IMG/VR virus record: IMGVR_UViG_2548876863_000003
Location: 1 to 4,435 of that record
Strand: one strand, 5' to 3'
Source: a virus
Taxonomy: Duplodnaviria > Heunggongvirae > Uroviricota > Caudoviricetes
DNA: 4,435 nt
Below the pieces are notes generated by a model. That model was given only the letters and a program-made list of their open reading frames with translations, did no database searches and was not told the origin of the DNA. Both the position numbers and the translations under genes were made by a program. Of this stretch, positions 1 to 3,249 are shown piece after piece (position 1 is the first letter of the stretch; each line of letters begins with the position of its first letter).

Positions 1-20
1 CAAAAACCCGTTATCCGGTG
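1..20 (-). terminator. Possible weak intrinsic terminator downstream of the repressor gene (minus-strand RNA ...CACCGGAUAACGGGUUUUUG)
   Basis: On the minus strand a short GC stem (CCGG/CGGG around a GAUAA loop) is followed by a U5 run. The stem is only 3-4 bp and the element lies at the window edge. No ORF continues leftward on the minus strand: all three frames hit stops at 11-13, 40-42 and 72-74. Confidence 0.2.
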
Positions 21-103
21 AAACGCAGCACCGCTCCGCTTAAGTGAACGGCATTGGACGCTAAGGTCGGGTTATTGTTGTGTGTTTTAGAGTGGTGAGG
101 CTG

Positions 104-757
104 TTAACTAAATGTCTCTTCAGGCCACTGGCTGGCGATAACTTTCCCTACTACGGAACAGCTATCATTGCATGGAATCATTGGATATTGCGGGTTTAGT
201 GGTTGTAGGAACACCTGACCGCTATCCCTGATCAGTTTCTTGAAGGTAAACTCGTCACCACCAAGTCTGGCTATGCAGAAATCACCTGGCTCAACAGCCT
301 GCTCAGGGTCAACGAGAATTAACATCCCGTCAGGAAAGCTTGGCTTGGATCCTGTTGGCGCGGTCATGGAATTACCTTCAACTTCAAGCCAAAACGCACA
401 ATCACTGGCTTTTTTGGTTGTGCTGACCCATCTCTCCGCATCACCTTTGGTAAAGGTTCTAAGCTCAGGCGAGAACATACCGGCCTGAACATGAGAAAAA
501 ACAGGGTACTCATATTGTTTTTTAACGGGGGCAGATGAGTATTCGCCAACAGGTGAAAATGTACCGTCGTGGTTGAATGAGACGTTATCAATACCAAGGT
601 ATTTAAACACCACACCAATCTCGTCAAGAGATGGATGACGAGATCCGCGCAACCAGTGACCAATTCCACCCTGCGTCATACCAAGCTCTTCGGCTAACTT
701 CTCTTGAGTTATGCCGAGCTCTTTCATTCTGGATCTAGCCAGTTCATACCATTTCAT
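104..757 (-). CDS. cI: CI-type prophage repressor: N-terminal XRE-family helix-turn-helix domain plus C-terminal S24 (LexA/CI) self-cleaving peptidase domain
   Basis: The ORF track gives 104..805, but that ORF begins with TTG. I place the start at ATG 757 ([18 protein letters not shown]...) because AAGGG lies 7 nt upstream; ATG 763 and ATG 799 are alternatives. The C-terminal domain carries the S24 hallmarks: a QAG Ala-Gly self-cleavage site, a GNSM serine motif and a GKVIASQW lysine motif. From [12 protein letters not shown] to the end it is near-identical to the phage lambda CI C-terminal domain as recalled from memory (only about 3 substitutions). The N-terminal HTH domain is unrelated to lambda's. 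The stop is TAA at 104-106. Confidence 0.9.
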
Positions 758-874
758 TTTCATACCCTTATTATTACGCTCTGTACTAAAATCATCCATG
801 CACAAGATGTATTTTTTGTTTGCATTCTAAAAGTACATATCGTATTATTGCGTTATGGTTACTATGGAGGGCAT
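758..874. promoter_or_regulatory. Divergent immunity control region (OR-like operators with PR-like and PRM-like promoters) between the repressor and cro
   Basis: Position between divergently transcribed repressor and cro genes, AT-rich. Candidate rightward promoter: -35 TTGCAT (820-825), 17-bp spacer, -10 TATTAT (843-848), then GGAGG (866-870) and cro ATG at 875. Candidate leftward -10 is TAGAAT on the minus strand (829-824). Individual operator sites could not be resolved by eye; there are short inverted AGTACA/TGTACT elements at 782-787 and 832-837 and TATTATT(A/G)CG repeats at 768-779 and 843-852. Confidence 0.5.
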
Positions 875-1090
875 ATGAGCAACCTACGAAAATATCGAGA
901 GTCACTGAATATCTCTCAAACAACACTTGCTAAGGCAGTTGGATGCACACAGGGAGCTATCGGACATTGGGAATCTGGTCGTCGCTTCCCAGACCTTAAA
1001 ACATGCCGTGCTCTTGTTGCGTGCCTAAACAAGTTAGGCGCAAAAGTCAGTCTTGATGACGTGTTCCCGCCGGAACACAAAGCCGCTTAA
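875..1090 (+). CDS. cro: Cro-like small HTH repressor (71 aa, XRE family)
   Basis: ATG at 875 with GGAGG 4 nt upstream; 71 codons; stop TAA 1088-1090. The HTH is ISQTTLAKAVGCTQGAIGHW, and its recognition helix (TQGAIGHW) closely matches that of the divergent repressor (TQGGIGHW), as expected for a repressor/Cro pair sharing operators. The protein ends in KAA. It is the 3' part of tracked ORF 704..1090, whose 5' extension overlaps the repressor start and is not credible. Confidence 0.85.
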   Translation: MSNLRKYRESLNISQTTLAKAVGCTQGAIGHWESGRRFPDLKTCRALVACLNKLGAKVSLDDVFPPEHKAA

Positions 1091-1100
1091 TAAGCGGATC

Positions 1101-1146
1101 CGCTCTTTGTAACAACGGACATTCGTCCTACGTCGCTGAAAAGCGA
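1101..1146 (+). promoter_or_regulatory. nutR-like antitermination site: boxA-like element followed by two short hairpins (boxB candidates)
   Basis: CGCTCTTTGTAACAA (1101-1115) resembles the boxA consensus (CGCTCTTA in lambda, TGCTCTTTAACAA in rrn). Hairpin 1 is GGAC-ATTC-GTCC (1117-1128). Hairpin 2 is TCGCT-GAAA-AGCGA (1133-1146), a 5-bp stem with a GNRA-type loop reminiscent of lambda boxB (GCCCU-GAAAA-AGGGC). The position between cro and cII matches lambda nutR. Confidence 0.45.
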
Positions 1147-1221
1147 GTTCCAAGATATCTGACCAACTAAGGCCATATGCGTTTCCACGCATACCTTTCA
1201 ACTAACTATTCACTACTGGAA

Positions 1222-1254
1222 ATCTTAAGAAATGGAACAAACAAGTTACAGCAA
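1222..1254 (-). promoter_or_regulatory. PRE-like CII-activated leftward promoter embedded in the 5' end of cII
   Basis: The minus strand reads TTGC-TGTAAC-TTGT (1254-1241), a TTGC-N6-TTGY direct repeat like the lambda CII box (TTGC-N6-TTGC). It is followed by 13 nt and then TAAGAT-TTCC (1227-1222 onward), which mirrors the lambda PRE layout as recalled (TTGC-N6-TTGC, 13 nt, AAGTAT-TTCC). The location in codons 4-8 of cII is the same as in lambda. Confidence 0.45.
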
Positions 1255-1528
1255 ACTATCACAGCGCGACGTTGATCGCGCAGAAACAGATTTACTCATC
1301 AACCTGTCAACGCTTACCCAGCGCGGTCTGGCAAAGATGATTGGCTGTCATGAATCGAAGATAAGCAGAACGGACTGGAGATTTATTGCTTCGGTCCTGT
1401 GTGCTTTCGGAATGGCATCAGACATCAGTCCGATTAGCAGGGCTTTTAAGTATGCGCTTGATGGACTCACCAATAAAAAACGCCCGGCGGCAACCGAGCG
1501 TTCTGAACAAATCCAGATGGATTTTTAA
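1232..1528 (+). CDS. cII: CII-like transcriptional activator (98 aa)
   Basis: ATG 1232; stop TAA 1526-1528. The C-terminus LTNKKRPAATERSEQIQMDF is essentially identical to the lambda CII C-terminus (ILTNKKRPAATERSEQIQMEF, from memory). The N-terminal 78 residues are diverged but of the same length and pattern (KISRTDW here versus QISRWKRDW in lambda). Confidence 0.9.
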   Translation: MEQTSYSKLSQRDVDRAETDLLINLSTLTQRGLAKMIGCHESKISRTDWRFIASVLCAFGMASDISPISRAFKYALDGLTNKKRPAATERSEQIQMDF

Positions 1529-1546: not shown

Positions 1547-1555
1547 ATTATGGCA
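1547..1555 (-). promoter_or_regulatory. pO-like extended -10 promoter (TGcCATAAT) for the oop-like RNA, overlapping the HNH gene start codon
   Basis: The minus strand reads TGCCATAAT (1555-1547), i.e. a TGn extension plus CATAAT hexamer. In lambda (from memory) the pO -10 is also CATAAT and also overlaps the start codon of the downstream rightward gene (O, ...TCATTATGACA...). Here the same hexamer overlaps the ATTATG of the HNH gene. Confidence 0.5.
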
Positions 1556-2350
1556 AAAAAACCTACACCAGACCAGGTAAAAAAGATTCGTTCCGGCATT
1601 ACCAAGAAAATACGGTTTGAGGTTTTCAAGCGCGATGGCTTCAAATGCCAGTACTGTGGGAGTTCTGCGCCAGACGTCATCCTTCATGTCGACCATATCA
1701 ACCCAGTTAGCAAGGGTGGCGATAACGACATGATGAACCTTATTACTTCTTGCGATAGTTGTAATGGCGGGAAAAGCGACAAACTGCTCAGCGATAACTC
1801 AATAATGGAAAAGCAAAGGCAGCAACTCCAGGAACTTAATACCAAGCGAGAGCAACTGGAGATGATGATCAAGTGGCGAGATGGTCTTAAGAGCCTGAAA
1901 GACGATGTTGTTGATATTGTCGCTACCAAAATTGACGACTGCATTGCGCCATTTACTGTTAATGACAATGGGCGAAAATCTATCAAGAGATGGCTTCGAA
2001 TATATAAGCTTGAAGAAATCCTCGATGCGATTGAGATTGCTGCAGACAAAAAACTCACCCAAGAAATAACCCATGAGCTTACTGGTGAATTCTTTGAGTA
2101 CATCCCTCGCATAGCAGCGACAAAAAGAAAACCGCCAAAAGAACAAAGGATTCTATACATCAGAGGAATCCTTAAAAACCGCATATATATCAATCAAAAC
2201 CATGTAATGAGTTATCTCAAGGCATGGCTTTCATACGACTTAGATCTCGATGAACTTACTGAGTTTGCGAAAACAGTACCTAACTGGACAACGTTCAAGG
2301 AGTGGGTATCTGAACGCATTCGTGAAGCTCAGGAAGAACTCCCGTACTAA
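1550..2350 (+). CDS. HNH-family endonuclease (about 266 aa) with an N-terminal HNH domain, a coiled-coil-like segment and a roughly 150-aa C-terminal domain of unknown function
   Basis: ATG 1550 with GGAG (1540-1543) 6 nt upstream; the in-frame ATG at 1538 lacks an RBS. The HNH motif is complete: CQYCG...LHVDHINPVSKGGDNDMMNLITSCDSCNGGKSDK (two Cys pairs, H-x-D-H, conserved N). A Q/E/L-rich heptad-like stretch follows (QRQQLQELNTKREQLEMMIKW). Stop TAA 2348-2350. The gene sits between cII and the replication initiator, in a co-directional tightly packed operon. Confidence 0.8.
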   Translation: MAKKPTPDQVKKIRSGITKKIRFEVFKRDGFKCQYCGSSAPDVILHVDHINPVSKGGDNDMMNLITSCDSCNGGKSDKLLSDNSIMEKQRQQLQELNTKREQLEMMIKWRDGLKSLKDDVVDIVATKIDDCIAPFTVNDNGRKSIKRWLRIYKLEEILDAIEIAADKKLTQEITHELTGEFFEYIPRIAATKRKPPKEQRILYIRGILKNRIYINQNHVMSYLKAWLSYDLDLDELTEFAKTVPNWTTFKEWVSERIREAQEELPY

Positions 2351-2361
2351 AGGTGGACAAA

Positions 2362-3249
2362 ATGGCACGTTCAAGAAATATCAAACCAGGCTTTTTCACC
2401 AATGATGAATTAGCTGAGTGTTCTCCATATGCCCGTCTCCTTTTTGCCGGGTTATGGACTATTGCTGACAAAGAAGGGCGGTTGGATGATCGCCCAAAGA
2501 AAATTAAAGCAATGGTACTGCCTTTCGATGATGTGGACTGCAATGATCTGCTTCAGCAACTTCACAGTCACAAATTCATCAACCGATATCAGGTAAATGG
2601 CGGCTCATATATCCAAATCAATAACTGGAAAAAGCACCAGAACCCTCACTGCAAAGAAGCTGCCAGTGAGATACCAGAACCAGTAGAGAACAATAACAGC
2701 ACCATGCAAGTACAGTGCAATGACGATAAAGGGGAAGAGAAGGAGGATGCAGAATCACTTCAAGTCATTGAAAACAATGAAGCACCAGAAAAGCACCATG
2801 CAAGTACAGTGCAAGAACAAGTTGAGAACAGTTTAAATCCTGCTGATTCCCTTAACCTGATTCCTGATTCCCTTAACCTGATTCCTGATTCCCTTTCTAA
2901 CACCCAAGCCGCTGACGCGACTTGTGAAGGGGGTGGGGCTGATGTCCATAAAATTTCAAGTCGCTATGCATTCGAAGGAAATATCGTTCGGTTAAACCAC
3001 AAGGATTACGAAGCATGGAAGCGCCTGTATCCGAACATTGACCTGAATTACGAGCTGGAAAGGCTGGATATCGAATTTAGCCATGAGAAGCCAAAGAACT
3101 GGTTTATCACTGCCAGCCAGAAACTCAGCTACCAGAACAAGCAGGCGTTATCCAGACCGGTACGCAAGGTTGCTAATGGACTTAAGGCTGAAAACTTTGC
3201 CACCAAGGATTACGGACAAACTGAAATGCCTTCATGGGCGCAGGAGTGA
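2362..3249 (+). CDS. Putative replication initiator (functional analogue of lambda O): conserved N-terminal domain, acidic low-complexity linker encoded by repeat DNA, C-terminal domain
   Basis: ATG 2362 with AGGTGG (2351-2356) 5 nt upstream; the tracked ORF starts at GTG 2353. Stop TGA 3247-3249. It lies immediately upstream of, and is translationally coupled to, the DnaC-like loader. The central region (about aa 95-200) is E/N/Q/D-rich low complexity and coincides with the DNA repeats at 2698-2901. The family assignment is not resolved from sequence alone; the protein is not lambda-O-like in sequence. Confidence 0.65.
   Translation: MARSRNIKPGFFTNDELAECSPYARLLFAGLWTIADKEGRLDDRPKKIKAMVLPFDDVDCNDLLQQLHSHKFINRYQVNGGSYIQINNWKKHQNPHCKEAASEIPEPVENNNSTMQVQCNDDKGEEKEDAESLQVIENNEAPEKHHASTVQEQVENSLNPADSLNLIPDSLNLIPDSLSNTQAADATCEGGGADVHKISSRYAFEGNIVRLNHKDYEAWKRLYPNIDLNYELERLDIEFSHEKPKNWFITASQKLSYQNKQALSRPVRKVANGLKAENFATKDYGQTEMPSWAQE
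2698..2720. repeat. Copy 1 of a 23-bp exact direct repeat AGCACCATGCAAGTACAGTGCAA
   Basis: Identical 23-mer at 2698-2720 and 2792-2814, offset by 94 bp (not a multiple of 3), so the two copies are translated in different frames (STMQVQC versus KHHASTVQ). The conservation is therefore at the DNA level. Confidence 0.8.
2792..2814. repeat. Copy 2 of the 23-bp exact direct repeat AGCACCATGCAAGTACAGTGCAA
   Basis: See copy 1; exact match read directly from the sequence. Confidence 0.8.
2843..2901. repeat. Tandem 21-bp repeats (CTGATTCCCTTAACCTGATTC x2 plus a partial third copy), an iteron-like array
   Basis: Units at 2843-2863 and 2864-2884 are identical; the third (2885-2901) diverges after CTGATTCCCTT. 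The core CTGATTC occurs five times (2843, 2857, 2864, 2878, 2885) with alternating 14 and 7 bp spacing. The array encodes DSLNLIP-DSLNLIP-DSLSN in the initiator linker. Confidence 0.8.

What the first reader, a model, noticed from the sequence alone, without database searches (positions are those of the whole stretch)
1083..1193. Densely structured cro-cII leader: overlapping palindromes at the cro stop, a boxA-like element, and three hairpins
Two perfect palindromes overlap the cro stop: CCGCTTAATAAGCGG (1083-1097) and AGCGGATCCGCT (1093-1104). They share AAGCGG, so the corresponding RNA hairpins are mutually exclusive. The second runs into a boxA-like CGCTCTTTGTAACAA (1101-1115). Then come hairpins at 1117-1128 and 1133-1146 (boxB candidates) and a third at 1176-1193 (TATGCG-TTTCCA-CGCATA). 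The spacing from boxA to the GNRA-loop hairpin is longer than in lambda nutR, and the extra hairpins suggest a different antitermination or termination mechanism.
Basis: partly seen in the sequence, partly recalled or inferred. Interest (0 to 1): 0.45.

Follow-up and report, generated by a model that had tools for sequence, protein, structure and literature searches.

The report
Prophage nutR antitermination site, H-19B type
The structured stretch between the cro-like and cII genes is the ordinary rightward N-utilisation (nutR) site and Rho terminator region of a Shiga-toxin-phage-type lambdoid prophage, a close variant of the nutR already studied in phage H-19B.

Summary

Positions 1101-1146 form a lambdoid nutR site. 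It has boxA (CGCTCTTT), a spacer hairpin (GGAC-ATTC-GTCC), a UACG linker and boxB (TCGCT-GAAA-AGCGA).

The spacer hairpin and the boxB stem are identical to the published H-19B nutR. Only the boxB loop differs: GAAA here, GACAA in H-19B.

Across hundreds of phage contigs the spacer hairpin covaries strongly. The boxB loop type also tracks the N protein's arginine-rich motif without exception.

Prophages whose sequence is identical to window 1061-1235 carry a 90-residue VT2-Sakai-type N gene left of cI. That gene is preceded by a matching nutL.

The third hairpin (1176-1193) is the counterpart of the lambda tR1-region hairpin. It follows a C-rich, G-poor stretch that resembles a Rho utilisation (rut) site.

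The two overlapping palindromes at the cro stop occur in only one cro allele lineage and show no compensatory change. I see no evidence that they function.

The "different mechanism" idea reduces to the known H-19B-type nut architecture. This is a known kind of element and of low interest.

The parts
875..1090 (+). cro-like gene (HTH_3 family); stop TAA at 1088-1090, followed by a second TAA at 1091-1093
   Evidence: ORF list; Pfam HTH_3 E 4e-12; annotated as cro or repressor in VT2-Sakai and the Stx1 phage
1062..1079 (+).
   Evidence: -10.1 kcal/mol, z -3.57. Variants keep pairing only through G-U. Function unknown.
1083..1097 (+). Inverted repeat CCGCTT-AAT-AAGCGG with the cro stop codon in its loop; specific to one cro allele lineage
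   Evidence: -7.5 kcal/mol. Present only in this cro allele lineage. Left-arm synonymous variants are uncompensated.
1093..1104 (+). 12-nt palindrome AGCGGATCCGCT overlapping the first 4 nt of boxA; as RNA it gives a weak 4-bp hairpin
   Evidence: -4.0 kcal/mol, z -1.86. The centre varies (AT, AG, GT), and CCACT variants break it without compensation.
1101..1115 (+). boxA: core CGCTCTTT at 1101-1108, plus GTAACAA
   Evidence: Same position in the nutL of related prophages (GGCTCTTTAAACAA). Covered by the covariance-model match. Lambda reference CGCTCTTA.
1117..1128 (+). nut spacer hairpin GGAC-ATTC-GTCC
   Evidence: Identical to the H-19B nutR spacer (oligo RS663). 4 of its 5 pairs show compensatory changes over 33 distinct sites; whole-structure covariation score (both helices) 0.408 against 0.101 in shuffles.
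1129..1132 (+). Invariant linker TACG between the spacer hairpin and boxB
   Evidence: Invariant in alignments A1 and A2, but it was part of the search pattern
1133..1146 (+). boxB: 5-bp stem TCGCT/AGCGA with a GAAA tetraloop; predicted binding site of the N arginine-rich motif
   Evidence: Same stem as H-19B boxB, loop GAAA instead of GACAA. nutL copy TGGCT-GAAA-AGCCA in the same prophages. Loop type tracks the N motif in about 165 loci with no exception.
1102..1149 (+). Full match to a covariance model built from 24 other nut sites of this subfamily
   Evidence: 56.6 bits, E about 1e-13, the only strong hit in the window. L003, L004 and VT2-Sakai each give one nutL and one nutR hit. Lambda-type loci give none.
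1147..1175 (+). Unstructured stretch after boxB that becomes C-rich and G-poor downstream; rutB-like Rho loading region (inferred)
   Evidence: GC skew is weakly negative at 1140-1179 (-0.06) and falls to -0.26 to -0.54 over 1150-1229. Homologous to the H-19B sequence immediately after boxB (oligo RS665). Same layout as lambda rutB.
1176..1193 (+). tR1-region hairpin TATGCGT-TTCC-ACGCATA
   Evidence: -7.1 kcal/mol, z -6.65. A hairpin lies at the equivalent place in all 15 leaders folded, lambda type included, with different stem sequences.
1232..1528 (+). cII gene, the first gene whose expression depends on read-through of the leader
   Evidence: Pfam Phage_CII E 8e-35

Best explanation
Positions 1101-1146 are the nutR site of a lambdoid prophage with VT2-Sakai/Stx-phage-type immunity. 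Positions 1147-1231 are the associated Rho-dependent tR1 region ahead of cII.

Proposed mechanism:

1. In the pR transcript, boxB (1133-1146, GAAA tetraloop) is bound by the arginine-rich N terminus of the phage N protein. This is a 90-residue Sakai-type N encoded left of cI, outside the window.
2. NusA joins through N and the spacer. boxA (1101-1108) can recruit NusB and S10.
3. The RNA-tethered complex makes RNA polymerase resistant to Rho at tR1 and at later terminators.
4. Without N, Rho loads on the C-rich, G-poor RNA flanking boxB. It releases the transcript around the pause-prone hairpin at 1176-1193, which limits cII and replication gene expression.
5. The spacer hairpin (1117-1128) is the 'dyad symmetry' typical of H-19B-type nut sites. 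Its likely role is to keep the long spacer folded locally, so that boxA (CGCU) does not pair with the 3' arm of boxB (AGCG).

The palindromes at the cro stop (1083-1104) are a lineage-specific by-product of the cro end and boxA junction, with no demonstrated role.

Shown here: anatomy, homology to H-19B nutR, covariation, the paired nutL, the cognate N gene, and the coupling of N motif to boxB loop.

Inferred: binding, host-factor use, Rho dependence and the termination points.
For: - **Gene context.** cI, cro, cII and replication genes are in lambdoid order.
- **H-19B nutR.** Published oligos give the spacer as ...GGACATTCGTCCTACG and boxB as TACGTCGCTGACAAAGCGA. The window has the identical spacer hairpin and boxB stem, and homologous downstream sequence. 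In H-19B this region was shown to hold two hairpins, N/NusA footprints on spacer and boxB, and an overlapping Rho site with tR1 (PMC3526286).
- **Identical prophages.** L003 and L004 are identical to window 1061-1235. Both carry an N gene (Pfam N_peptide, E 8e-32) preceded by a nutL: GGCTCTTTAAACAA-GTCGA ACAC TCGAC-TACG-TGGCT GAAA AGCCA.
- **Covariance model.** A model built from 24 other sites scores the window site at 56.6 bits. It finds exactly one nutL and one nutR in L003, L004 and VT2-Sakai, and nothing in lambda-type loci.
- **Covariation.** 4 of 5 spacer-helix pairs show compensatory changes. The whole-structure score (both helices) is 0.408 against 0.101 in shuffles (0 of 500 as high) and at most 0.083 in slid controls.
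- **N motif and boxB loop.** H-19B/933W/HK97-type N (GNSRSRRRERLKAK) always goes with a GACAA loop. Sakai-type and related N (G[ST]xAxRRR[AE]xR) always go with GAAA or GCAA. There were no exceptions.
- **Leader layout.** The order stop, boxA, boxB, unstructured C>G stretch, hairpin, cII matches lambda, where rutA, nutR and rutB are annotated.
- **Alternative fold.** A fold pairing boxA with the boxB 3' arm is nearly isoenergetic with the two-hairpin fold: -11.9 against -11.7 kcal/mol.
Against: - No experiment exists on this exact sequence or on the Sakai-type N with a GAAA boxB.
- The N gene and nutL are outside the window. They are inferred from prophages that are identical over 1061-1235.
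- In the exact-match genome L003, an IS4 element separates cI from pL-N and an IS3 disrupts the helicase-loader gene. That particular prophage may be decaying.
- As I recall Neely and Friedman 2000, boxA and NusB/S10 are dispensable for H-19B N. The paper could not be read here. Many family members have degenerate boxA, so the role given to boxA is uncertain.
- boxB stem complementarity and the TACGT linker were part of the retrieval pattern or filter, so their conservation is partly by construction.
- The loci come from IMG/VR and are dominated by enterobacterial prophages, so many are not independent.
Confidence: 0.88

Rival explanations
1. Translation-coupled switch. The mutually exclusive hairpins 1083-1097 and 1093-1104 sense ribosomes terminating at the cro stop. 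They either expose or sequester the first bases of boxA, which tunes NusB/S10 loading or antitermination efficiency.
For: The two hairpins share AGCGG, and the second covers the CGCT of boxA. Hairpin 1 is reasonably stable at -7.5 kcal/mol. The stop codon lies in its loop, 10 nt before boxA. From my own knowledge, translation close to lambda boxA is known to interfere with N action (Olson, Tomich and Friedman 1984).
Against: The structure is found only in one cro allele lineage. All other cro/nutR junctions (for example GCATAAGTAACACCGCT) lack it. Left-arm synonymous changes (GCTGCG, GCTGCT) and CCACT variants are uncompensated. Hairpin 2 is weak (z -1.86). The same palindrome is joined to both boxB classes, which fits passive carriage with the cro module.
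Confidence: 0.07
2. Factor-independent attenuator or put-like RNA. The hairpins themselves terminate or antiterminate transcription without an N protein, as in HK022 put or in leader attenuators.
For: Dense hairpins lie in a leader. There is a weak Rfam Trp_leader hit on the minus strand at 1075-1171 (18.1 bits, E 4.1).
Against: The Rfam hit is far below the gathering score of 41 and is on the wrong strand. No plus-strand hairpin in 1083-1200 is followed by a U tract. An N gene and a matching nutL are present in the prophages that are identical over 1061-1235. The boxB loop type tracks the N motif.
Confidence: 0.02
3. Minus-strand function. The inverted repeats act in the leftward pRE (establishment) transcript. 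One candidate is the terminator-like hairpin 1097..1083 followed by CTTTGTGTT, which could limit antisense transcription into cro and cI.
For: The simple scan flags 1097..1083 on the minus strand as terminator-like. A pRE-type cII box, TTGC-N6-TTGT, lies at the reverse complement of 1241-1254, at the same offset from the cII ATG as in lambda. The region is therefore probably transcribed leftward.
Against: Terminating pRE transcripts before cI would defeat their purpose. The T tract is interrupted by G residues. The hairpin is lineage-specific and shows no covariation.
Confidence: 0.03

Closest known systems
nutR/tR1 of Stx1 phage H-19B (also HK97 and 933W)
   Same: The order is the same: boxA, long spacer with a hairpin, UACG, boxB, then a C-rich stretch and a hairpin before cII. 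The spacer hairpin GGACATTCGTCC and the boxB stem TCGCT/AGCGA are identical, and the downstream sequence is near-identical. The N proteins are homologous, with shared C-terminal halves (41% identity). The covariance model also scores HK97 nutR at 51.5 bits.
   Different: The boxB loop is GAAA (4 nt) instead of GACAA (5 nt). N is 90 residues with motif GTAASRRRARRA, not 127 residues with GNSRSRRRERLKAK. boxA here is a better match to consensus (CGCTCTTT against CGCTATTT). The nutL of the Sakai type keeps the TACGT linker, while H-19B-type nutL has boxB GCGCT-GACAA-AGCGC without it.
Lambda nutR-tR1
   Same: Position after cro. Order boxA, boxB (5-bp stem, GNRA-type loop), rut-like flanks, hairpin about 38 nt before the cII ATG, and a pRE cII box at +10..+23 of cII.
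   Different: The lambda spacer is 9 nt and unstructured. Its boxB has a GAAAA pentaloop and stem GCCCU/AGGGC. The lambda-type site is not detected by the subfamily covariance model. Lambda N is unrelated in its RNA-binding motif.
P22 nut sites
   Same: From my own knowledge, the P22 nutL boxB is GCGCUGACAAAGCGC, the same as H-19B-type nutL. It is an ARM-peptide/GNRA-like hairpin recognition system.
   Different: From my own knowledge, P22 has a pentaloop with an extruded base and no spacer hairpin of this type. It was not examined here.
E. coli rrn boxA antitermination site
   Same: From my own knowledge, the rrn boxA is UGCUCUUUAACAA. The core GCUCUUU is present, followed by AACAA: the window has CGCUCUUU-GU-AACAA and nutL has GGCUCUUUAAACAA.
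   Different: The rrn system has no N protein and no boxB dependence. Here a 2-nt insertion separates the core from AACAA.

Membership tests
Lambdoid N-utilisation (nut) site | Lies in the early rightward transcript, just after cro and before cII | tested here: met
   cro stop at 1088-1090, site at 1101-1146, cII ATG at 1232
Lambdoid N-utilisation (nut) site | boxA element matching CGCTCTT(T/A) | tested here: met
   CGCTCTTT at 1101-1108; lambda reference CGCTCTTA. The heptamer alone is not statistically rare.
Lambdoid N-utilisation (nut) site | boxB hairpin with a GNRA-type loop, downstream of boxA | tested here: met
   TCGCT-GAAA-AGCGA, -6.5 kcal/mol. The second stem pair varies CG, GC and AU among sites, though complementarity was a selection filter.
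Lambdoid N-utilisation (nut) site | A second, leftward copy (nutL) with the same boxB type between pL and N in the same phage | tested here: met
   Not in the window. Present in L003 and L004 (identical to window 1061-1235) and in VT2-Sakai.
Lambdoid N-utilisation (nut) site | Cognate N protein with an N-terminal arginine-rich motif | tested here: met
   WP_000088201.1, 90 residues, Pfam N_peptide E 8e-32. It lies outside the window.
Lambdoid N-utilisation (nut) site | N-dependent read-through of downstream terminators | not testable with these tools
   Shown experimentally only for the H-19B homologue (PMC3526286)
H-19B-type nut site | Dyad symmetry (hairpin) in the boxA-boxB spacer | tested here: met
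   GGAC-ATTC-GTCC, identical to H-19B; supported by covariation
H-19B-type nut site | boxB loop GACAA | tested here: not met
   The loop is GAAA
H-19B-type nut site | H-19B/933W/HK97-type N (127 residues, motif RSRRRER) | tested here: not met
   The associated N is the 90-residue Sakai type, 41% identical
H-19B-type nut site | Reduced host-factor requirement (independent of NusB/S10 and boxA) | not testable with these tools
   This claim comes from my memory of Neely and Friedman 2000. Only the title was available, through reference lists.
Rho-dependent terminator tR1 | C-rich, G-poor unstructured rut RNA flanking boxB | tested here: inconclusive
   GC skew is negative through 1090-1230, reaching -0.54. 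The layout matches the annotated lambda rutA and rutB. Composition alone does not prove Rho loading.
HK022 put-type RNA antiterminator | Two-stem RNA acting without an N protein; phage lacks N | tested here: not met
   An N gene is present in the prophages identical over 1061-1235. No Rfam family matched at threshold.

The most novel reading that the evidence does not exclude
The Sakai-type N and its boxB with a true 4-nt GNRA tetraloop (GAAA, rarely GCAA) form a separate N-specificity class. This class lacks the extruded loop base of the lambda and P22 pentaloops. From my own knowledge, that extra base in lambda contributes to NusA-dependent complex assembly. This class might therefore recognise boxB differently, or have a different NusA or host-factor requirement, than both lambda and H-19B. 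A natural one-nucleotide loop difference, together with the N motif change, would then be the specificity switch between co-resident Stx prophages.
Probability: 0.3. Interest if true: 0.35.

Novelty: new member of a known kind. Interest (0 to 1): 0.18.

Why it matters
The practical value is for annotation. nutL and nutR are not annotated in VT2-Sakai or in the Stx1 phage records. The covariance model built here finds both sites cleanly.

The strict coupling between boxB loop (GAAA or GACAA) and N arginine-rich motif suggests at least two non-cross-reacting N systems among Shiga-toxin prophages that often share a host. That bears on whether one induced prophage can trans-activate another's early genes. 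It is an incremental point within a well-understood system, not a new mechanism.

Tried and rejected
- **Rfam.** A search of the whole window at E up to 10 gave only chance-level hits: Trp_leader on the minus strand at E 4.1, STnc310 over the oop-like terminator, and 7SK. No family matched at threshold.
- **The repeat finder.** With a minimum length of 8 it reported no inverted repeats, because all arms are 7 nt or shorter. I replaced it with my own hairpin count.
- **Best overall phage matches.** Dewey and Louie (98.9% identity) turned out to be unusable for this region. They carry lambda-type N, nutL and nutR, with the recombination joint immediately after the cro stop.
- **Intrinsic terminator or attenuator reading.** Rejected, because no plus-strand hairpin in the region has a U tract.
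- **put-like reading.** Rejected, because N is present.
- **Neely and Friedman 2000** (PMID 11123680) is not held. Its findings are cited from memory and from its title only.
- **Literature searches** for a description of VT2-Sakai nut sites or of a natural GAAA-tetraloop boxB found nothing relevant.
- **Alignment limits.** MAFFT put four long-loop spacer hairpins (L042, L017, L111, L024) out of register in A1. They lower the paired percentage, although each forms its own hairpin.

Full report
**What the window is.** The 4435 bases are the immunity and replication region of a lambdoid prophage.
- Genes, in order: a LexA-like cI repressor (104-760, minus strand), a small HTH cro-like gene (875-1090), cII (1232-1528, Pfam Phage_CII), an HNH endonuclease, a replication initiator and a DnaC-like loader.
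- The whole window matches an E. coli bovine isolate chromosome at 100% identity (L003) and strain 2013C-3250 at 99.9% (L004).
- Positions 1061-1235 are identical in both. They differ at 5 positions from VT2-Sakai and from the Morioka Stx1 phage.

**Check of the observation.** Every element is at the stated coordinates.
- Corrections:
  - 1083-1097 is a 6-bp inverted repeat around AAT, not a perfect palindrome.
  - The two cro-stop elements share AGCGG, not AAGCGG.
  - The third hairpin is best drawn as 7 bp with a TTCC loop.
- The cluster is not chance. There are six overlapping stem placements of at least 5 bp in 1076-1200, belonging to three hairpins, against 0.61 in shuffles (P about 0.0015). 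The fold z-score for 1050-1235 is -2.86.
- The 1093-1104 hairpin is weak on its own (-4.0 kcal/mol, z -1.86).

**Identification as nutR.** The supplement of Muteeb et al. [quoted passage not shown]
- Reverse-complemented, they read:
  - boxA region: ...CACCGCTATTTTCAC
  - spacer: CACAATGGACATTCGTCCTACG
  - boxB: TACGTCGCTGACAAAGCGAGTCCC
  - downstream: GTCCCAATATATCTGACCAACTAAGG
- The window reads AACAACGGACATTCGTCCTACGTCGCTGAAAAGCGAGTTCCAAGATATCTGACCAACTAAGG.
- The spacer hairpin and the boxB stem are therefore identical, and the downstream sequence is homologous. The only structural difference is the boxB loop: GAAA here, GACAA in H-19B.
- That paper states that H-19B nutR contains two hairpins (spacer and boxB). 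N with NusA/NusG protects the spacer and boxB from nucleases, and Rho alone protects the spacer. A Rho-dependent tR1 overlaps the site.
- The spacer dyad of H-19B nut sites and a reduced need for host factors are the subject of Neely and Friedman 2000. I could see only its title, through reference lists. The details I give of it are from memory.

**The N gene and nutL.** In L003 and L004 an N gene lies left of cI. It is WP_000088201.1, 90 residues, MSRKTEFKGTAASRRRARRANLQ..., Pfam N_peptide E 8e-32.
- It is preceded by GGCTCTTTAAACAA-C-GTCGA ACAC TCGAC-TACG-TGGCT GAAA AGCCA.
- The Stx1 phage has the same arrangement with spacer loop CTC.
- nutL therefore repeats the architecture with a different spacer stem and a G-C to C-G swap in the boxB stem.
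- This N is the VT2-Sakai type. It is 41% identical to the 127-residue H-19B/933W type.

**Comparative evidence.** Two IMG/VR pattern scans, TACGTNGCTGAAAAGCNA and the GACAA equivalent, returned 240 loci.
- Many GAAA loci have two divergent sites 1.3-3.5 kb apart, as expected for nutL and nutR.
- Spacer hairpin stems seen immediately 5' of TACGT:
  - GGAC/GTCC
  - GTCGA/TCGAC
  - GGCC/GGCC
  - GGTGA/TCACC
  - GATTC/GAATC
  - GATTGC/GCAATC
  - GGGC/GCCC
  - GGCA/TGCC
- On an alignment of 33 distinct sites, 4 of 5 spacer-helix pairs show compensatory changes. The whole-structure covariation score is 0.408, against 0.101 in shuffles (0 of 500 reach it) and at most 0.083 when partners are slid.
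- The boxB pair at stem position 2 occurs as CG, GC and AU. Complementarity there was a selection filter, so that result is partly by construction. Non-complementary pattern hits lacked any boxA or spacer context.
- A covariance model was built from 24 sites that do not have the window's spacer hairpin sequence; the closest (L034) differs from it by one loop base. Its results:
  - Window 1102-1149 scores 56.6 bits (E about 1e-13), with no other strong hit in the window.
  - It finds exactly one nutL and one nutR in L003, L004, the Stx1 phage and VT2-Sakai.
  - It finds nutR of HK97 (51.5 bits).
  - It finds nothing in lambda or in the lambda-type phage Dewey.

**N motif against boxB loop.** I extracted N ORFs from all loci.
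- The H-19B/933W/HK97-type motif (GNSRSRRRERLKAK) is always paired with GACAA boxBs. This covers about 90 loci, with nutL GCGCT-GACAA-AGCGC and nutR TCGCT-GACAA-AGCGA.
- Sakai-type and related motifs (G[ST]xAxRRR[AE]xR) are always paired with GAAA or, rarely, GCAA tetraloops. This covers about 75 loci.
- There were no exceptions. N type was not a retrieval criterion, so this supports cognate specificity classes.
- Many loci are close relatives, so the number of independent events is much smaller than the locus count.

**The third hairpin and tR1.** I folded fifteen distinct boxB-to-cII leaders, including the lambda-type one.
- All show the same plan: about 20-28 unstructured, A/C-rich, G-poor bases after boxB, then a GC-rich hairpin 35-45 nt before the cII ATG, with different stem sequences.
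- In lambda the annotated order is rutA, nutR, rutB, then the GTATGCA...TGCATAC hairpin.
- The window has negative GC skew from 1090 to 1230, reaching -0.54.
- The hairpin at 1176-1193 is thus the counterpart of the lambda tR1-region hairpin.
- Its role as a pause or termination-zone element is inferred from my knowledge of lambda tR1. It was not tested here.

**The palindromes at the cro stop.** They occur only with this cro allele. About 13 of 72 distinct upstream sequences have them, all of one lineage. Other cro/nutR junctions read GCATAAGTAACACCGCT and the like, and have no such structure.
- Variants in the coding left arm (GCTGCGTAA, GCTGCTTAA) are synonymous and uncompensated. CCACT variants break the second palindrome, and its centre varies.
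- The same palindrome is found fused to both boxB classes, which indicates recombination within boxA.
- The right arm largely derives from the TAAGC that follows the stop codon in most alleles. The repeated CCGCT is simply the cro end (GCC GCT) plus the start of boxA.
- I therefore treat these as lineage-specific and probably incidental.
- A translation-coupled effect on boxA cannot be excluded. I give it about 7%.

**Alternative folds.** For 1098-1150 the minimum-energy fold pairs boxA CGCU with the boxB 3' arm AGCG (-11.9 kcal/mol). The centroid is the two-hairpin fold (-11.7 kcal/mol). This is consistent with the idea that the spacer hairpin guards against misfolding. It is a prediction only.

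**Verdict.**
- The features that seemed unusual (long spacer, extra hairpins) define the already characterised H-19B-type nut/tR1 architecture.
- This copy is the VT2-Sakai-type member, with a GAAA tetraloop boxB and its own N.
- nut sites are not annotated in the VT2-Sakai or Stx1 phage records. I found no paper describing this variant.
- It is a new member of a known kind, and interest is low.

Noticed in passing
window 1-56: These bases are the 3' end of an IS4-family element. In the exact-match genome L003 it sits between the cI stop and OL/pL-N. Strain 2013C-3250 (L004) and the phages Dewey and Louie lack it, and their similarity to the window starts at position 57. L003 also has an IS3 inside the helicase-loader gene that the window lacks.
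   Followed up: partly
window 1477-1504 (minus strand): A strong intrinsic-terminator-like hairpin, AGAACGCTCGGTTGCCGCCGGGCGTTTTTTATT, lies antisense to the cII 3' end. From my knowledge of lambda, it looks like the oop RNA terminator. It also gave a weak Rfam STnc310 hit.
   Followed up: no
window 1241-1254 (minus strand): TTGC-TGTAAC-TTGT is a cII-binding pRE -35-type repeat. It lies at +10..+23 of the cII ORF, exactly the offset of TTGC-N6-TTGC in lambda. The nutR/tR1 region is therefore probably also transcribed leftward during establishment of lysogeny.
   Followed up: no
window 1062-1079: A perfect 7-bp hairpin, GTGTTCC-CGCC-GGAACAC (-10.1 kcal/mol), lies inside the last codons of cro. 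Natural variants keep pairing only through G-U wobbles at synonymous sites.
   Followed up: partly
window 1083-1097 (minus strand): On the minus strand the cro-stop repeat is followed by CTTTGTGTT. The simple scan flags it as terminator-like, and it would face pRE transcripts.
   Followed up: no
window 2678-2884: The replication initiator gene contains two exact tandem copies of the 21-nt unit CTGATTCCCTTAACCTGATTC (2843-2884). It also has a 22-nt direct repeat, GCACCATGCAAGTACAGTGCAA (2699-2720 and 2793-2814). These are probably origin iterons embedded in the O-like gene.
   Followed up: partly
window 1550-2350: An HNH endonuclease ORF lies between cII and the replication genes, where lambda has nothing.
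   Followed up: no
L001 (phage Dewey) 5700-5900 and 7030-7100: Dewey and Louie share this cI, cro and replication module at 98.9% identity but carry lambda-type N, nutL and nutR. The recombination joint falls immediately after the cro stop codon, a clean example of module exchange at nut.
   Followed up: yes
L051 around 1440-1570: One IMG/VR contig has three different boxB-like hairpins in a row: GCGCT-GAAAA-AGCGC, TCGCT-GAAA-AGCGA and GGCT-GAAAA-AGCC. Two of them are preceded by boxA-like GCTCTTT motifs. This may be a compound or multi-specificity nut region.
   Followed up: no
L005-L124, alignment A1 columns 12-17: The ACAA(C/T)G motif just 5' of the spacer hairpin is at least 90% conserved, even in sites whose boxA core is degenerate (for example CACCACTTCC or AACACCC). 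This hints that it, rather than the boxA core, is the constrained part of the spacer in this subfamily.
   Followed up: no
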